Positions 31,754 to 50,975 of a DNA stretch of 58,418 nt are shown here, piece after piece. Numbering within the stretch: position 1 is the stretch's first letter; every line of letters begins with the position of its first letter. The DNA lies in sequence record PP627278.1. One strand, 5' to 3'. Both the position numbers and the translations under genes were made by a program. The notes under the pieces were generated by a model. It was not told where the DNA came from, did no database searches, and worked only from the letters and a program-made list of their open reading frames with translations. This DNA is from Escherichia phage KS_A3.

Positions 31754-32008
31754 TTAAACCTCCGTTAATGTTTGAGTCCAGTCTAAGCCTTCAAGATCTA
31801 CATCAGCTATTTCATCGTACTCGTAAGCTTCCGGATCTGCTGGCAACCATCTATCAAAGCGATGGCTAAGTTCTGGAGGAATTGCTTCATATCCCCAAAC
31901 CTTCCCATCCTTGTCGGCTGCCAGATAATCAACTCGACTTGGAACGGTTAAAGCGACACCACAAAAATTAACATCTTTAGTATGCACAACCTGGCTTAAC
32001 ACACGCAT
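31754..32008 (-). CDS. hypothetical protein, member of three-copy paralogous family
   Basis: 84 aa; shares AxDxDGKV...Y and W..TL.E motifs with ORFs 52708-52950 and 53292-53588. Confidence 0.45.
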   Translation of the reverse strand: MRVLSQVVHTKDVNFCGVALTVPSRVDYLAADKDGKVWGYEAIPPELSHRFDRWLPADPEAYEYDEIADVDLEGLDWTQTLTEV

Positions 32009-32715
32009 TATTCCACCCCGATATATTTGTGAACCTGAAGCTGCAACGTGTAACCGTGTTTCATACAGCTTTGGACAACGGCTTGGATATTACTGTGGTT
32101 AAGGTCTTCATCCTGCTCGTCCATTGGCTGTAAATATATCTTACCCTTGAAACCCTTCGGAGGTCTAGCGATAAATGGCGTAGCTTGATGATCTAATGCC
32201 TGAAGCGGCAAACCATCTTCCACGTTTACACAGCACGCTTTAAGTACATATTTAAATGCATTAGCGCGGCGCAGCACAGAAGGATGAATCTTTGAGGTCT
32301 TGGGACTACATACAATTACAGGTAACTGGGAAAAGTTCTTAGGTAAAGGCATAGACCCATTAGTTTCAATTTGCACCAAATACCCGCGCGATAACAGTTG
32401 TTCAATAAACGGGTTAATTTGCTGACGGAACGGTTCACCCCCAGTGATAACCACAAGTGAGGTGCTATTACCTGATTCCAGCTTACGGCTTTCGATTAAA
32501 CGCATAATATCGACAATGTGATAAAGACTACGACCAACAGTATAATCTGTATCACAGCCAGGACATTGCAGATTACACCCAGCAAGACGCACAAATACAG
32601 CAGGTTGGCCGCAGAATGGACCTTCACCTTGAATGGTAGAGAATACCGAATGCACGTCTAAATACATATCGTTTTCTTTAGAACGGGACTCGGGAGCTTG
32701 TTGATTAATATTCAT
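32008..32715 (-). CDS. queE: 7-carboxy-7-deazaguanine synthase (radical SAM)
   Basis: 235 aa; radical-SAM Cys triad CNLQCPGC; ITGGEP motif. Confidence 0.85.
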   Translation of the reverse strand: MNINQQAPESRSKENDMYLDVHSVFSTIQGEGPFCGQPAVFVRLAGCNLQCPGCDTDYTVGRSLYHIVDIMRLIESRKLESGNSTSLVVITGGEPFRQQINPFIEQLLSRGYLVQIETNGSMPLPKNFSQLPVIVCSPKTSKIHPSVLRRANAFKYVLKACCVNVEDGLPLQALDHQATPFIARPPKGFKGKIYLQPMDEQDEDLNHSNIQAVVQSCMKHGYTLQLQVHKYIGVE

Positions 32716-32730
32716 CTTAAATCCTCTAGT

Positions 32731-32760
32731 GAAAAAGAAAGCGCCTCATTGGGCGCTTTC
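32731..32760 (-). terminator. hairpin terminator/attenuator upstream of queE
   Basis: AAAGCGCC-TCATTG-GGCGCTTT followed by a U-run on the - strand; only about 16 nt before the queE start codon. Confidence 0.35.
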
Positions 32761-32784
32761 ATTATAACGTGATATGTTTTGATA

Positions 32785-33591
32785 TTACAAGCCGTTCAGG
32801 GCTTCCGGTACTGGTACAGGTACGCGACCAGTCACACCATTAAATTTCTTCCAGCGTGCATACTGGGTTTTAACGGTATCTTCGTTCAGACCATGTCGAC
32901 CAGCCAGGTTCAGAACATAAGAGATCGGAGCAGGCTGACCCAGCGTAGCGCTAATCTGGTCCATCAGAGCCCAGGCACGACCGCAGGAAGTTTCAGGTTG
33001 TGGACGACGAACACCATTCTGTTCAGGCATACGGTTCGCTTCTTTCGCTTTTTCACGTTCAGCTTTTTCGCGGGCTTTTTCAGCAGCCTTTTCAGCCTGT
33101 TTAGCAGCGCGGATCTTGTCTTTGAAGCCTTTGATAAACGAATCCAGTTCGTCAACCATGCTCTGAGCAGCACTTACTGCACCGGACAGATCTTCATCTT
33201 TGGATTTTTTAACAACTGCTTTCAGCTCTTTCAGTTTATTCTTAAAAAGCTTCAGCTGTTCAGAACCCTGAAATTCAGCTACCGTAATCTCTTCAATAGT
33301 GCCTTTATCGGCAACATCGGATAAAACAGACCTCACGGTTTCAACTCCGCGGGAAAGAGCGGTAAATTTATTTTCCGCTACAGCACGAATTTCAGCTTGT
33401 TTCTTTTCAGCGGCAGCTTTTTTCTCTGCTTCTTTTTTCTCTTTTGCTACGCGTGCAGCTTCAGCGGCAGCGGCTTTTTTAGCTTCTTTCTTTGCAGGCT
33501 TAGCAGATTTTTCAGCGGCAGCAGCGGCTGCGGCAGCAGCGGCTGCGGCAGCAGCGGCTTTCTTATCTTCAATATTACTCATTTTCTTCAC
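32785..33591 (-). CDS. lysine/alanine-rich histone H1-like protein with poly-Ala tract
   Basis: 268 aa; N-terminal run of 15 Ala then KAAK/EKKA repeats, globular C-terminal domain. Confidence 0.55.
   Translation of the reverse strand: MKKMSNIEDKKAAAAAAAAAAAAAAAEKSAKPAKKEAKKAAAAEAARVAKEKKEAEKKAAAEKKQAEIRAVAENKFTALSRGVETVRSVLSDVADKGTIEEITVAEFQGSEQLKLFKNKLKELKAVVKKSKDEDLSGAVSAAQSMVDELDSFIKGFKDKIRAAKQAEKAAEKAREKAEREKAKEANRMPEQNGVRRPQPETSCGRAWALMDQISATLGQPAPISYVLNLAGRHGLNEDTVKTQYARWKKFNGVTGRVPVPVPEALNGL
33515..33559. repeat. perfect 3x tandem 15-mer (GCGGCAGCAGCGGCT) encoding poly-Ala
   Basis: three identical 15-nt units read directly in the sequence. Confidence 0.9.
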
Positions 33592-33709
33592 TCCGAATTA
33601 TTATGGGTTCGTTTGTTACCAACGGGGTTAAATGTACCAAAGGATTTTGTGACACGCAACCCCTTACATAAACATTTTTAAAAATATTTTTGATCAGGGT
33701 TAGAACTTA

Positions 33710-34204
33710 TTAGCTCTTCGCACCTCTGCCCGGTGTCCATGCTGCTTGCAATGCGGGTTGCTCACAAATGACCCTGGCACCGGAAATAATACCACCCTCC
33801 CGTTCAGCATCGTATTTGACACGGGCAGGTTTCCAAAGTCCTTCATCCATTGACGGTACATATTGCCCAAGTTGAGGCGAGCAAAAGCCCTGGATATCAT
33901 ATTCCACACAGAATTCGGCTTGTGCGCTAATTTGGGCGTGATCCAGGAGTGTTTCTGGAAGTTGCGTAAAGTAATCAGACAAAATGCGCTCAACGATTTC
34001 CCGTTCATAAGGTGCAGCTCCTAAATTTTCTGTCAAGTTAATATAAAGCATTTGTAGATCAACATCTTCAAGATCGTGTAAATCGTCTACTGGTGTTACC
34101 AGTGTTGACTCCGGACAACAAATAATTCCAAGTTGGTGTAGTGTCAGCCAATTGGGATGCTTTGCCAAGAGTTCAAATTTATCTGTATCAATTAGGACGT
34201 ACAT
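33710..34204 (-). CDS. hypothetical protein
   Basis: 164 aa acidic ORF. Confidence 0.4.
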   Translation of the reverse strand: MYVLIDTDKFELLAKHPNWLTLHQLGIICCPESTLVTPVDDLHDLEDVDLQMLYINLTENLGAAPYEREIVERILSDYFTQLPETLLDHAQISAQAEFCVEYDIQGFCSPQLGQYVPSMDEGLWKPARVKYDAEREGGIISGARVICEQPALQAAWTPGRGAKS

Positions 34205-37219: not shown

Positions 37220-38104
37220 TTACTGCTGCCACGGCGGGACTGCTGCTTGTGCCGGATGGGGTTCAGCTTGCTGCTGTGGCTGCGCTTGCTGTTGCGGTGC
37301 CGCTGCCTGGCCCGGCTGCGCTACCTGCTGCGCCCACGGTTGCTGAGCTGCTTCCGGTGCTACTGGCTGTTGTACCGGAGCTTGCTGAACTGGCTGCTGT
37401 GGCGCTGCGTTTTGAGCAGGGTTATCCCACGGCTGCGGTGCTGCGTTCTGCCACGGTTGAGCTGCTGCGACCTGCTGCGGTGCTGGTTGCTGCTGCACAG
37501 GCTGCTGAACTGTCTGCTGTTGCTGTACCGGAGCTTGCTGCTGTACAGGCGCTTGCTGTTGCTGAGCAAACGGGTTAGCTGCTGGCTGCTGTGGCGCTGC
37601 GCCCGGGAAAGTCGGTTGCTGTGCTGGCGCACCTGCACCAAACGGGTTAGCTACTGCTGGAGCACCCATTGATGGAGCCTCTGCTGCTTTTTCTGCATAT
37701 TTAACCGGATCGTTGATGTTAGCGTAACCGTTAGGCTCGTTGCTGTCTTCATAACCTTCCTGAGAACGAACTTTCAGACGCAGGTTCAGCGGAATGTTAT
37801 GCAGCTGAGCAGGGGTATCCCAGCGAATTACACCAACCGCATGGGACAGAGCACCCAGTTGCTCGTAAGCGATGCGTACAGTATCTTCGTTGTCGTTAAT
37901 GACGTTATAACGAGCAAAGATTTTACGACCTTTAGCAAAACCGTCAATGATGCTAAACGTTACCTGGATCGCCATACCGCCATTTTTGGTCGGTTTAAAT
38001 TCAGATGCTTCAATTACTGCTTTATACCAACCTTTCGGCAATGCGCCGTAAGAAGGTGCTTGATAGCTGCTCGCGTCAAAGTGGAAATTAGTTGGCATAG
38101 TCAT
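37220..38104 (-). CDS. putative ssDNA-binding protein with Q/P/A-rich disordered C-terminal tail
   Basis: 294 aa; about 135-aa globular N-terminus then about 160 aa of PQQ/AQQ low complexity; directly downstream of the Sak4-like ATPase. Confidence 0.4.
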   Translation of the reverse strand: MTMPTNFHFDASSYQAPSYGALPKGWYKAVIEASEFKPTKNGGMAIQVTFSIIDGFAKGRKIFARYNVINDNEDTVRIAYEQLGALSHAVGVIRWDTPAQLHNIPLNLRLKVRSQEGYEDSNEPNGYANINDPVKYAEKAAEAPSMGAPAVANPFGAGAPAQQPTFPGAAPQQPAANPFAQQQQAPVQQQAPVQQQQTVQQPVQQQPAPQQVAAAQPWQNAAPQPWDNPAQNAAPQQPVQQAPVQQPVAPEAAQQPWAQQVAQPGQAAAPQQQAQPQQQAEPHPAQAAVPPWQQ

Positions 38105-49894: not shown

Positions 49895-50377
49895 TTATGC
49901 GTCCAGTCCGTGGTTGGCGTGAAATTTGTAATGCTCTTCCGCTTGTTTACGGGCCTGTTTTGCGTCCTCTATAGTATCATATAAACCTAGATACTTTTTC
50001 AATCCGTTTATTTGAATGTAAGCCTGAAATTTACATGCCTTTTTATTAAAGTAAACTCCTGTTACTCCGGTAGAGTTATTTATTGCCCTGCTAAGATTTT
50101 TACTATTATCGCTTGGCAACACTAAGCGCAAATTCTCTATGCGGTCGTCCCATGTACAATGATTAATATGGTCTATTTGATGCCCTTCCGGTATCGGGCC
50201 TTTATGCAACTCCCATACTAACCTTGAACGACGATATAGTTTTCCCTTGTATCCTATCAGGATGTATCCGCGCTTATTTGGTACACCAGCTTTACTACCG
50301 ATAGAAATCTGTTTAGCTGGTTTTATTTTCCAAAATAATTCTCCGTTTTGATAGCTGAAGATATTATTTAAGTCCAT
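49895..50377 (-). CDS. HNH homing endonuclease with AP2-like DNA-binding domain
   Basis: 160 aa; IDHINHCTWDDRIENL HNH motif; GVTGVYFNKK...YLGLYDTIEDA AP2-like segment. Confidence 0.65.
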   Translation of the reverse strand: MDLNNIFSYQNGELFWKIKPAKQISIGSKAGVPNKRGYILIGYKGKLYRRSRLVWELHKGPIPEGHQIDHINHCTWDDRIENLRLVLPSDNSKNLSRAINNSTGVTGVYFNKKACKFQAYIQINGLKKYLGLYDTIEDAKQARKQAEEHYKFHANHGLDA

Positions 50378-50975
50378 GATAAGTTCTCCAAGCGTAGAAC
50401 TGAATGGCGACCGTTGTCCCGTTGTAAGAAGGCATTGCAGCTTTCATTTCTTTCAGCTCCGGCGTGCGGCCCAGTTCGGCTAAAAGTTTATCGCCCATTG
50501 CCCACACTTCGGCGGTTTTTCCTTTCAGAGGCTTGCGAGCGCCATTTTTGAAATCGCAGCGAGCAGCTTTTGCATCCTGTTTTGGCGCGGCAGCTTTTGG
50601 CTCTTCAATTTTGATCTCAGAAACCTGCGTGGCAGCTTTTGCGTGTTTCATATCTTTCTCTTCCTCCTGCTCCAGAGCTTCGAGGCAGCTTTTGACGATT
50701 TCCGGATTTACCATCGGGCGCAGTACCGAGACGCTGGCAGCTGGCGCGGCGGTTGGTGCTGGGACTTTCTGCTCCGGCTGTTGCGCTTTTTTATGGTCGC
50801 GCAGTACCTGAAGCACTTCCTTCTCGACGATGTAAAAACCAATCTCATCCTGATGGATTAACTGCTCGTGTGCGTCGCGTGCAACCTGGCCCCAGCGGGT
50901 CTTAAGGGCGCGGCGTGCATTCGTTTTCATGGTGTAACGCATTTTGTCCTGTTCGCGGTGAGTTACTTTAGACAT
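50364..50975 (-). CDS. hypothetical protein
   Basis: 203 aa, SD AAGGAG. Confidence 0.45.
   Translation of the reverse strand: MSKVTHREQDKMRYTMKTNARRALKTRWGQVARDAHEQLIHQDEIGFYIVEKEVLQVLRDHKKAQQPEQKVPAPTAAPAASVSVLRPMVNPEIVKSCLEALEQEEEKDMKHAKAATQVSEIKIEEPKAAAPKQDAKAARCDFKNGARKPLKGKTAEVWAMGDKLLAELGRTPELKEMKAAMPSYNGTTVAIQFYAWRTYHGLK

What the first reader, a model, noticed from the sequence alone, without database searches (positions are those of the whole stretch)
32785..33591. Histone H1-like K/A-rich protein with a 15-residue poly-Ala tract encoded by a perfect tandem DNA repeat
The 268-aa protein begins with 15 consecutive Ala followed by KAAK/EKKA repeats and ends in a globular domain. The poly-Ala is encoded by three perfect copies of a 15-mer (33515-33559), a slippage-prone sequence that could give length variation. 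It lies directly upstream of queE; a DNA-coating or nucleoid-targeting role linked to the modified genome is speculative.
Basis: partly seen in the sequence, partly recalled or inferred. Interest (0 to 1): 0.55.

Follow-up and report, generated by a model that had tools for sequence, protein, structure and literature searches.

The report
Ala/Lys-rich phage protein beside queE
A real, probably abundantly expressed phage gene encodes a helical Ala/Lys/Glu-rich protein ending in a small, uncatalogued winged-helix-like domain; it almost always sits just upstream of the 7-deazaguanine DNA-modification genes, and its poly-alanine tract varies in length between isolates by gain of a 15-bp repeat unit.

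Summary
The window is Escherichia phage KS_S4 (Seuratvirus). The minus-strand gene 32785-33582 (265 aa from the ATG) carries 15 consecutive Ala. They are encoded by three perfect 15-bp units at 33515-33559, the only perfect tandem repeat in the window.

Across 17 isolates the tract is 10, 11, 13, 15 or 16 Ala. The three-copy state arose in two separate lineages, so slippage-type length variation is real. It is modest and in-frame, and two copies is the norm.

This domain defines a phage-specific family of at least 2,000 clusters. In all 84 metagenomic and MAG loci with enough downstream sequence, queE follows within about 1 kb of the domain start. Nine annotated phages also carry the que/dpdA cluster nearby. 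Codon bias equals that of the capsid and SSB-like genes. Homologues are not listed in two virion proteomes.

Best reading: an abundant, non-virion DNA-binding or architectural protein of the replication/modification module. Its function is untested.

The parts
32785..33582 (-). Coding sequence of the Ala/Lys/Glu-rich protein (265 aa plus stop; the ORF tool's GTG start at 33591 would add 3 residues). GenBank WZL04491.1, 'hypothetical protein'.
   Evidence: PHROG 11298, unknown function, E 2e-111.
33515..33559 (-). Three perfect copies of a 15-bp unit (AGCCGCTGCTGCCGC on the coding strand) that encode the 15-Ala tract (Ala codons 33514-33558).
   Evidence: TRF 100% match, score 90. Copy number is 2 in most isolates and 3 in KS_S4 and Greed.
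33481..33487 (-). Single remaining copy of a 7-bp direct repeat (AGAAGCT). It marks a KS_S4-specific 21-bp in-frame deletion (7 aa, ATANDAE in relatives).
   Evidence: DNA alignment of 17 isolates.
33385..33513 (-). Ala/Lys/Glu-rich segment 1 (residues 24-66): 35% K+R, 35% A, 19% D+E, net charge +7. Predicted as part of a long helix.
   Evidence: imperfect 33-nt internal DNA repeats.
33118..33384 (-). Middle helical region (residues 67-155), part of three long helices (30-93, 96-126, 130-182). Present in enterobacterial-type members and absent from the short (145-200 aa) family members.
   Evidence: AlphaFold2 pLDDT 94-98. Foldseek finds only generic three-helix bundles, none significant. Sequences.
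33031..33117 (-). Ala/Lys/Glu-rich segment 2 (residues 156-184), net charge +5, helical linker into the C-terminal domain.
32788..33030 (-). Conserved C-terminal domain (residues 185-265): a basic beta-hairpin (PEQNGVRRP), three helices, and a GRVxxPxP tail. Invariant Q188, N189, P194, W204, Y241, W244, G252.
32737..32760 (-). Terminator-like hairpin (9-bp stem, 6 G-C pairs, T-run) between this gene and queE.
   Evidence: annotated as a terminator in phages Seurat, SA80RD and SA126VB.
33583..33696 (-). Upstream leader or promoter region, nearly invariant across Seuratvirus isolates, with a GGGGTT...AACCCC hairpin and the GGAG ribosome-binding site.
   Evidence: Alignment of 7 isolates, 93% mean column identity. 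It is conserved even in STP-SP5, which is 77% identical overall. Fold z-score -2.26. Unique in the window.
33710..34204 (-). Upstream neighbour (164 aa, PHROG 7864, unknown function). Its homologues are fused to this protein family in six metagenomic representatives.
   Evidence: BLASTP to P0135 gives 28% identity over 130 aa, E 2e-8.
50364..50975 (-). Paralogue (203 aa, hypothetical) carrying a divergent copy of the same C-terminal domain. It lies in the early region next to an HNH endonuclease gene.
   Evidence: hmmsearch of the six-frame translation with the domain HMM, E 6.4e-7; shares PHROGs 17772 and 21588 with the target.
32008..32715 (-). queE, the first gene of the queE-queC-queD-folE-dpdA 7-deazaguanine cluster, immediately downstream (context).

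Best explanation
The gene encodes an abundant, non-virion, basic (pI 9.6) protein of the phage replication and DNA-modification module.

Proposed mechanism:
- The conserved C-terminal beta-hairpin plus three-helix (winged-helix-like) domain binds nucleic acid, most likely double-stranded DNA. The invariant basic hairpin (NG-x-R-R/K-P) and the conserved Arg/Lys face of the third helix (YARW[KR]KF) would make the contacts.
- The long Ala/Lys/Glu-rich helices act as a spacer or self-association scaffold. The protein would then work stoichiometrically, like a nucleoid-associated or architectural protein, not like a rare regulator.
- The poly-Ala tract is a genus-specific low-complexity extension of the Ala-rich N-terminal helix. 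It grows and shrinks by replication slippage of a 15-bp unit, is tolerated between about 10 and 16 residues, and is not the functional core.

Shown here: gene, repeat, polymorphism, fold class, family size, synteny and codon bias.
Inferred: DNA binding, oligomerisation and abundance.
For: - Conservation: the invariant or near-invariant residues cluster in the hairpin (Q188, N189, G190, R192, R193, P194) and in helix 3 (Y241, A242, R243, W244, K246, F247).
- Architecture: some family members carry 2-3 tandem copies of the domain (P0121, P0163, P0122, P0180). This is typical of nucleic-acid-binding repeats.
- Charge: net +13, pI 9.6.
- Context: the gene lies between the Cas4-exonuclease/helicase genes and the queE-queC-queD-folE-dpdA-clamp-polymerase genes in 8 of 9 annotated phages from Escherichia, Pseudomonas, Rhizobium, Vibrio, Stenotrophomonas, Xanthomonas, Achromobacter and Aminobacter. 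In the ninth, Synechococcus phage Ssp-JY38, the best-matching copy lies after the polymerase gene, downstream of the que cluster. In all 84 IMG/VR and MAG loci with enough downstream sequence, queE follows the domain: within 300-670 bp in 83 of them and at +1040 in one.
- Expression proxy: the codon adaptation index is 0.507, rank 2 of 53 genes. It falls between the SSB-like gene (0.536) and the major capsid gene (0.491), and is uniform along the gene. The gene has a good ribosome-binding site, a nearly invariant leader and its own terminator.
- Not a virion component: the R7M and Vid5 virion proteomes do not list the homologue.
- Poly-Ala: copy number is 2 or 3, with recurrent gain. The tract is absent from other genera.
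Against: - No coordinates were available to inspect surface charge.
- Synteny with queE could simply reflect vertical inheritance of one conserved module in a large phage supergroup. The paralogous copy of the domain is not near the que genes.
- A terminator and a promoter-like site separate the gene from queE, so co-transcription is not implied.
- The codon adaptation weights came from memory of the Sharp and Li 1987 table, and codon bias is only a proxy for abundance.
- Absence from two virion proteomes is negative evidence from other genera.
Confidence: 0.45

Rival explanations
1. It is a dedicated accessory factor of the 7-deazaguanine DNA-modification system. It would either present DNA to the transglycosylase DpdA (a role played by the ParB-like ATPase DpdB in bacterial Dpd systems) or bind preQ0-modified phage DNA selectively, as SPO1 TF1 does for hydroxymethyluracil DNA.
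For: - queE is the next gene in 83 of 84 metagenomic and MAG loci with enough downstream sequence, and follows at +1040 in the 84th.
- Nine annotated phages whose domain identity to the query falls to about 40% all carry the que/dpdA cluster. In six of them queE is the next annotated gene or follows after only a tRNA gene.
- Every phage examined that has the domain also has the que/dpdA cluster.
- Bacterial chromosomes hold almost no copies: 9 loci in 185,579 species genomes, mostly phage contigs.
- From established knowledge, the phages listed here have no DpdB homologue annotated, and bacterial DpdA needs DpdB (PMC10164549 is listed but was not read in detail).
Against: - All these phages share one syntenic replication module, so co-occurrence is confounded by common descent.
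- Other deazaguanine phages named in Hutinet 2019 (Mycobacterium, Streptococcus, Campylobacter; named from my own knowledge of that paper) are not among the ten genera listed for the 149 matching records; 14 further genera were not listed.
- The gene is insulated from queE by a terminator.
- Paralogues lie elsewhere in the genome.
- The papers on CAjan, Iggy and 9g-type modification do not mention the gene.
Confidence: 0.15
2. It is a protein-protein adaptor of the replisome or recombination machinery. The winged-helix-like domain would dock onto another phage or host protein (as RPA32C, the MCM C-terminal domain or cullin WHB domains do), and the helical region would act as a spacer.
For: - The gene sits among helicase, Cas4 exonuclease, SSB-like, Sak4, ligase, clamp and polymerase genes.
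- Fusions with the upstream PHROG-7864 protein occur in six metagenomic representatives.
- The tail after the domain is conserved (GRVxxPxP).
Against: - The conserved basic hairpin, the basic helix-3 face and the overall pI of 9.6 fit nucleic-acid binding better.
- Tandem arrays of the domain fit avidity for a polymer.
- Capsid-level codon bias is unusual for an adaptor.
- No fusion was seen in the 89 loci fetched, so the fusions are rare and could be assembly or gene-calling artefacts.
Confidence: 0.15
3. It is a sequence-specific transcription factor, as several GenBank records label it ('transcriptional activator FtrA domain-containing protein').
For: - The annotation appears in CAjan, SA80RD, SA126VB, CSP1, phiG7, SD04, Vid5, R7M, Iggy and Vibrio CA8.
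- A helix-turn-helix-like fold is compatible with this role.
Against: - No Pfam or NCBIfam family matches at all, including any AraC/FtrA-type model, at E up to 1 or 0.1.
- Other records call the same protein 'plectin 1' or 'outer capsid protein'. This points to low-complexity BLAST artefacts that were then propagated.
- Codon bias at capsid level and tandem domain arrays fit a stoichiometric binder better.
- The conserved leader motif upstream of the gene is unique in the window. No scan for shared operator-like motifs elsewhere was made.
Confidence: 0.1
4. It is a histone-H1-like coat that is packaged with, or condenses, the modified genome.
For: - It combines Lys/Ala-rich segments with a winged-helix-like globular domain, which loosely parallels linker histone architecture.
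- It is basic, and codon bias suggests it is abundant.
Against: - The K/A segments are 19-21% acidic, contain almost no Pro, and are predicted as ordered helices. H1 tails, from established knowledge, are acid-poor, Pro-containing and disordered.
- The domain order is reversed.
- Homologues are not among the 14 (R7M) or 11 (Vid5) virion proteins found by mass spectrometry.
Confidence: 0.05

Closest known systems
Linker histone H1/H5 and bacterial 'H1-like' Lys/Ala-rich proteins (Chlamydia Hc1, Pseudomonas AlgP)
   Same: It is basic, has runs of Lys and Ala, and has one small winged-helix-type globular domain. A stoichiometric DNA-associated role is plausible.
   Different: - No sequence or profile match to Linker_histone.
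- The K/A segments hold 19-21% Asp+Glu and 0-1 Pro, and are predicted as long helices, one set forming a helical bundle.
- The globular domain is C-terminal and carries an N-terminal hairpin rather than a C-terminal wing.
- The pI is 9.6, well below that of H1 tails.
KfrA-type plasmid proteins (small N-terminal DNA-binding domain plus long Ala-rich helical tail)
   Same: The logic is the same: a compact helix-turn-helix or winged-helix module joined to a long Ala-rich, charged, helical region that could self-associate. Both are encoded next to replication or maintenance genes of a mobile element.
   Different: The domain order is reversed. There is no match to the KfrA_N Pfam family. The comparison rests on my knowledge of KfrA, not on a structural test here.
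Bacillus phage SPO1 TF1 (phage-encoded histone-like protein that prefers the phage's own modified DNA)
   Same: It would be a functional analogue only: an abundant phage-encoded DNA-binding protein in a phage with base-modified DNA.
   Different: TF1 is an HU-family dimer, which is an entirely different fold. Preference for modified DNA is untested here.
Pfam PF18780 HNH_repeat (homing-endonuclease-associated repeat)
   Same: - It is a three-helix unit of similar length with an 'LG-x-P' turn after helix 1 and a conserved Trp in helix 3.
- It occurs as tandem repeats.
- The window paralogue sits next to an HNH endonuclease gene.
- Sub-threshold Pfam hits: E 0.0084 for P0180 and 0.065 for the paralogue.
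   Different: - The profile-profile probability is only 24% (E 8.5e-4 pairwise; reversed control 0.3%).
- The main clade gives no Pfam hit to PF18780.
- HNH_repeat lacks the conserved basic hairpin.

Membership tests
Linker histone H1/H5 (PF00538) | Globular winged-helix domain recognisable by the Linker_histone profile | tested here: not met
Linker histone H1/H5 (PF00538) | Lys/Ala/Pro-rich, acid-poor, intrinsically disordered tail | tested here: not met
   Segments 24-66 and 156-184 hold 19-21% D+E and 0-1 Pro. They are predicted helical, with pLDDT about 80-98 over most of their length and about 60 for residues 21-30.
FtrA/AraC-type transcriptional activator (the GenBank label in CAjan and others) | Match to an AraC-type HTH or DJ-1/PfpI-like domain model | tested here: not met
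   No Pfam hit and no NCBIfam hit for the protein or for 91 family members.
Winged-helix / three-helix HTH fold class | Three-helix core with a beta-hairpin, superposable on known winged-helix domains | tested here: met
PF18780 HNH_repeat | Significant profile match to the repeat | tested here: inconclusive
   Sub-threshold hmmscan hits only. hhalign of 269 family domains against 162 real HNH repeats gives probability 24% and E 8.5e-4; the reversed control gives 0.3%.
KfrA (PF11740 KfrA_N) | Match to the KfrA N-terminal DNA-binding domain | tested here: not met
   No hit in the Pfam scan at E up to 1.
Slippage-prone simple-sequence contingency locus | Copy number of the repeat unit differs between closely related isolates | tested here: met
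   Two versus three copies of the 15-bp unit. The three-copy state occurs in two lineages whose nearest relatives have two.
Slippage-prone simple-sequence contingency locus | Repeat changes switch expression on and off (unit not a multiple of three, or located in a promoter) | tested here: not met
   The unit is 15 bp and lies inside the ORF, so every change is in-frame.
Virion (packaged) protein | Detected in purified particles by mass spectrometry | not testable with these tools
   Literature only. The homologues are not among the virion proteins of R7M (14 proteins, PMC8265664) or Vid5 (11 proteins, PMC6266253). No Seuratvirus virion proteome was found.
DNA-binding protein (functional class) | Binds DNA in vitro or in vivo | not testable with these tools
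   Inferred from fold, conserved basic residues, pI and context.

The most novel reading that the evidence does not exclude
The protein is an unrecognised core component of phage 7-deazaguanine genome modification. It would be a DNA-binding partner, encoded immediately upstream of queE in nearly every member of this phage supergroup. It would either load or assist DpdA on replicating DNA (standing in for the bacterial DpdB) or specifically coat preQ0/G+-modified DNA. In the second case it would distinguish phage DNA from host DNA, as TF1 does in SPO1.
Probability: 0.15. Interest if true: 0.75.

Novelty: new variant of a known kind. Interest (0 to 1): 0.42.

Why it matters
- The C-terminal domain defines a large, phage-restricted family: 2,173 clusters at 50% identity, of which 1,023 have E at or below 1e-10. 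It has no Pfam, NCBIfam, PHROG or PDB annotation.
- Its main clade holds one fixed position next to the genes that replace guanine by 7-deazaguanines in phage DNA.
- If the protein binds DNA, it is a candidate for an open question: how these phages handle, replicate, transcribe or modify hypermodified DNA without the DpdB partner used by bacteria.
- Practically, several public records carry misleading names for it ('plectin 1', 'outer capsid protein', 'FtrA transcriptional activator') that should be replaced.
- The poly-Ala polymorphism is a minor curiosity. It could serve as a strain marker and as a small natural experiment on how much poly-Ala length a bacterial-virus protein tolerates.

Tried and rejected
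- Sequence searches. Pfam, NCBIfam and PDB sequence searches of the whole protein, the domain profile and 91 members gave only low-complexity noise or nothing.
- Fold search, full-length model. Foldseek against the PDB returned only generic or designed helical bundles, none significant.
- Fold search, AlphaFold database. The afdb50 library was not available.
- Fold search, viral structures. BFVD returned only uncharacterised family members.
- HNH_repeat link. I baited real PF18780 repeats and ran hhalign. Probability was 9-24%, so the link stays a lead only.
- Origin or iteron idea. I considered whether the 15-bp repeat could be iterons inside the gene, as in lambda O. I rejected this because copy number varies, other genera lack the repeat, and it is simply Ala codons.
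- Phase variation. Rejected because the unit is in-frame.
- Repeated regulatory motif. The conserved leader sequence is unique in the window.
- Gene fusions with the upstream gene. I looked for them in 89 fetched loci and found none. The six fused metagenomic proteins remain unverified at the DNA level.
- Literature. Searches for any study of this protein in papers on Seuratvirus, CAjan, Iggy, Vid5, EC151, R7M and 7-deazaguanine found no mention.
- Upstream neighbour. It has no Pfam, NCBIfam or PDB match.

Full report
**Identity of the window and the gene**

A megablast of 32600-33800 finds a 100% match to Escherichia phage KS_S4 (PP627282.1; Seuratvirus, Queuovirinae) and 33 other related records. 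Window coordinates equal record coordinates minus 111.

The ORF tool lists the gene as 32785..33591 on the minus strand, 268 aa from a GTG. The ATG at 33582 has GGAG 8 nt upstream. The KS_S4 record and the records of at least 11 of the 16 fetched orthologues annotate that start, giving 265 aa. The three-codon ambiguity does not matter for what follows.

**The observation**

The protein reads MSNIEDKK-(Ala)15-EKSAKPAKKEAKKAAAAEAARVAKEKKEAEKKAAAEKKQAE....

Tandem Repeats Finder reports 33515-33559 with period 15, 3.0 copies and 100% matches. Over the whole window this is the top-scoring and only perfect tandem repeat.

The gene ends 69 nt before queE. The spacer holds a strong terminator-like hairpin at 32760-32737 and a promoter-like site.

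**Length variation**

I fetched the orthologous region from 16 other isolates and aligned proteins and DNA.

- The Ala tract is 10 residues in ECP2304, Dru_SM1 and WildeMaa.
- It is 11 in most isolates, including CAjan, Seurat, slur01 and SHIN8.
- It is 13, preceded by Ala-Ile, in STP-SP5.
- It is 15 in KS_S4 and 16 in Greed.
- An IMG/VR relative has an interrupted A-E-A8 version.

The 11-Ala alleles carry two copies of the 15-bp unit, and KS_S4 and Greed carry three. Outside the repeat, KS_S4 is closest to slur01 (98.5%) and SHIN8 (97.9%). Greed is closest to Seurat and CAjan (98.1%). KS_S4 and Greed are only 93.4% alike. The third copy was therefore gained twice or moved by recombination, which is what a slippage-prone tract predicts.

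The variation is nevertheless modest. Nearly all of a 40-member 90%-identity cluster are 267 aa, the two-copy length. The unit is a multiple of three, so no on/off switching is possible.

KS_S4 also has a private 21-bp in-frame deletion flanked by a 7-bp direct repeat. This is another microhomology event in the same low-complexity region. Nonagvirus and more distant homologues have no poly-Ala at all.

**Composition and structure**

Overall the protein is 21% Ala, 14% Lys and 11% Glu, with net charge +13 and pI 9.6. The two K/A segments (residues 24-66 and 156-184) contain 19-21% acidic residues and at most one Pro.

AlphaFold2 with a 101-sequence alignment gives mean pLDDT 89.

- A lower-confidence helix covers the poly-Ala (residues 4-23).
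- Three long helices follow (30-93, 96-126, 130-182).
- A compact C-terminal unit has a beta-hairpin (187-192) and three helices (199-214, 220-229, 234-247).

Pfam, NCBIfam and PDB sequence searches find nothing. The labels in public records ('transcriptional activator FtrA domain', 'plectin 1', 'outer capsid protein') have no support from these searches.

**The family**

The word-indexed search gave 196 relatives. Beyond the close orthologues, they share only the last 75 residues or so, at 50-65% identity. That domain is preceded by Ala/Lys/Glu-rich sequence of variable length.

Invariant positions are Q188, N189, P194, W204, Y241, W244 and G252. Near-invariant ones include G190, R192, R193, R243, K246 and F247. 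These lie in the hairpin and the third helix.

An exhaustive profile search finds 2,173 clusters at E up to 1e-3 and 1,023 at E up to 1e-10.

- All of the best 150 listed are short (380 aa or less).
- Some have two or three tandem copies of the domain.
- Six are fused to a homologue of the window's upstream gene 33710..34204 (28% identity over 130 aa). No such fusion occurs in the 89 loci I could inspect.

The window itself holds a divergent paralogue at 50364..50975.

Weak sub-threshold hits to PF18780 HNH_repeat led me to a profile-profile test against real repeats. Probability was 24%, against 0.3% for a reversed control, which is inconclusive.

In 185,579 species genomes only nine loci encode the domain. 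Most are phage-sized contigs inside MAGs, and one is an orphan copy in Mesorhizobium.

**Genomic context**

In 8 of 9 annotated phages the gene lies after the Cas4-exonuclease and helicase genes and before queE-queC-queD-folE-dpdA, followed where the stretch shown reaches that far by clamp and polymerase genes. These are KS_S4, Pseudomonas Iggy, Rhizobium RHEph04, Vibrio CA8, Stenotrophomonas Bhz54, Xanthomonas DoCa3, Achromobacter ART and Aminobacter Erebus. In the ninth, Synechococcus Ssp-JY38, the best-matching copy follows the polymerase gene downstream of the que cluster.

A tblastn survey of 80 IMG/VR loci and 9 genome loci covered 84 loci with enough downstream sequence. queE starts 300-670 bp after the start of the domain match in 83 of them, and at +1040 in the other.

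This is a striking regularity. However, all these phages share one syntenic module, so common descent is a sufficient explanation.

**Expression proxies**

The codon adaptation index, computed with E. coli weights recalled from Sharp and Li 1987, ranks the gene 2nd of 53 at 0.507. Above it is an SSB-like gene annotated as hypothetical (0.536, PHROG 6015). Below it is the major capsid gene (0.491). The value is similar in every segment of the gene.

The 114-nt leader is almost invariant among isolates, even in the isolate that is 77% identical overall.

Virion mass spectrometry in R7M and Vid5 does not list the homologue.

**Interpretation**

The most economical reading is an abundant, intracellular, basic protein. 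Its conserved winged-helix-like domain would bind nucleic acid. Its long charged helices would provide spacing or self-association within the replication/modification module. The poly-Ala would be a tolerated, slippage-driven, genus-specific extension.

The rivals are a dedicated DpdA accessory or modified-DNA reader, a replisome adaptor, a specific transcription factor, and an H1-like coat on packaged DNA. Each is scored separately in this report with the result that would refute it. None can be excluded without experiments. The last two have evidence against them.

**Verdict**

The feature is real and the repeat polymorphism is real but minor. The 'H1-like' label is compositional. The more interesting result is an unannotated, phage-specific domain family fixed next to the 7-deazaguanine genes. 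No paper searched mentions the protein.

Noticed in passing
window 50364-50975 (-): A second gene (203 aa, hypothetical, PHROG 22313) ends in a divergent copy of the same C-terminal domain (E 6.4e-7 with the domain HMM). It lies next to an HNH endonuclease gene (49895-50377). Related phages such as Iggy, BL5, R7M, BcepGomr and Vibrio phages have 2-4 such genes.
   Followed up: partly
window 37220-38104 (-), tandem repeats at 37266-37564: A gene annotated 'hypothetical' between the Cas4 exonuclease and Sak4 genes matches phage single-strand DNA-binding protein families (PHROG 6015, E 1e-37). It has a long Gln/Pro/Ala-rich tail encoded by imperfect 18-24-bp tandem repeats. It has the highest codon adaptation index in the window (0.536).
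   Followed up: partly
window 33583-33696 (-): The leader upstream of the target gene is nearly invariant across Seuratvirus isolates, more conserved than the coding sequence, even in STP-SP5. It contains a GGGGTT...AACCCC hairpin (fold z-score -2.26). The simple sigma-70 scan finds no promoter there. It may be a regulatory element or a structured 5' UTR.
   Followed up: partly
window 33481-33487 (-): KS_S4 alone lacks 21 bp (7 aa, ATANDAE) found in the other 15 Seuratvirus orthologues aligned, all but the divergent STP-SP5. The deletion is bounded by a 7-bp direct repeat (AGAAGCT), a microhomology or slippage event close to the poly-Ala repeat.
   Followed up: yes
window 33710-34204 (-): The upstream neighbour (164 aa, PHROG 7864; no Pfam, NCBIfam or PDB match) has very low codon adaptation (0.201, rank 50 of 53). 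Even so, its homologues appear fused to the target family in six metagenomic proteins (P0135, P0182, P0184, P0192, P0198, P0251). The fusions were not verified at the DNA level.
   Followed up: partly
L112 9686-10222 (Mesorhizobium hunchu contig11): An orphan chromosomal copy of the domain lies in a short ORF beside urease genes, with no que genes nearby. It is the only non-phage-like context seen.
   Followed up: no
GenBank records KX534337 (Greed), PQ202980 (CSP1C), KP064094 (CAjan) and others: The same protein is annotated as 'plectin 1', 'outer capsid protein' or 'transcriptional activator FtrA domain-containing protein'. None of these labels is supported by Pfam or NCBIfam. They look like propagated low-complexity BLAST artefacts.
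   Followed up: yes
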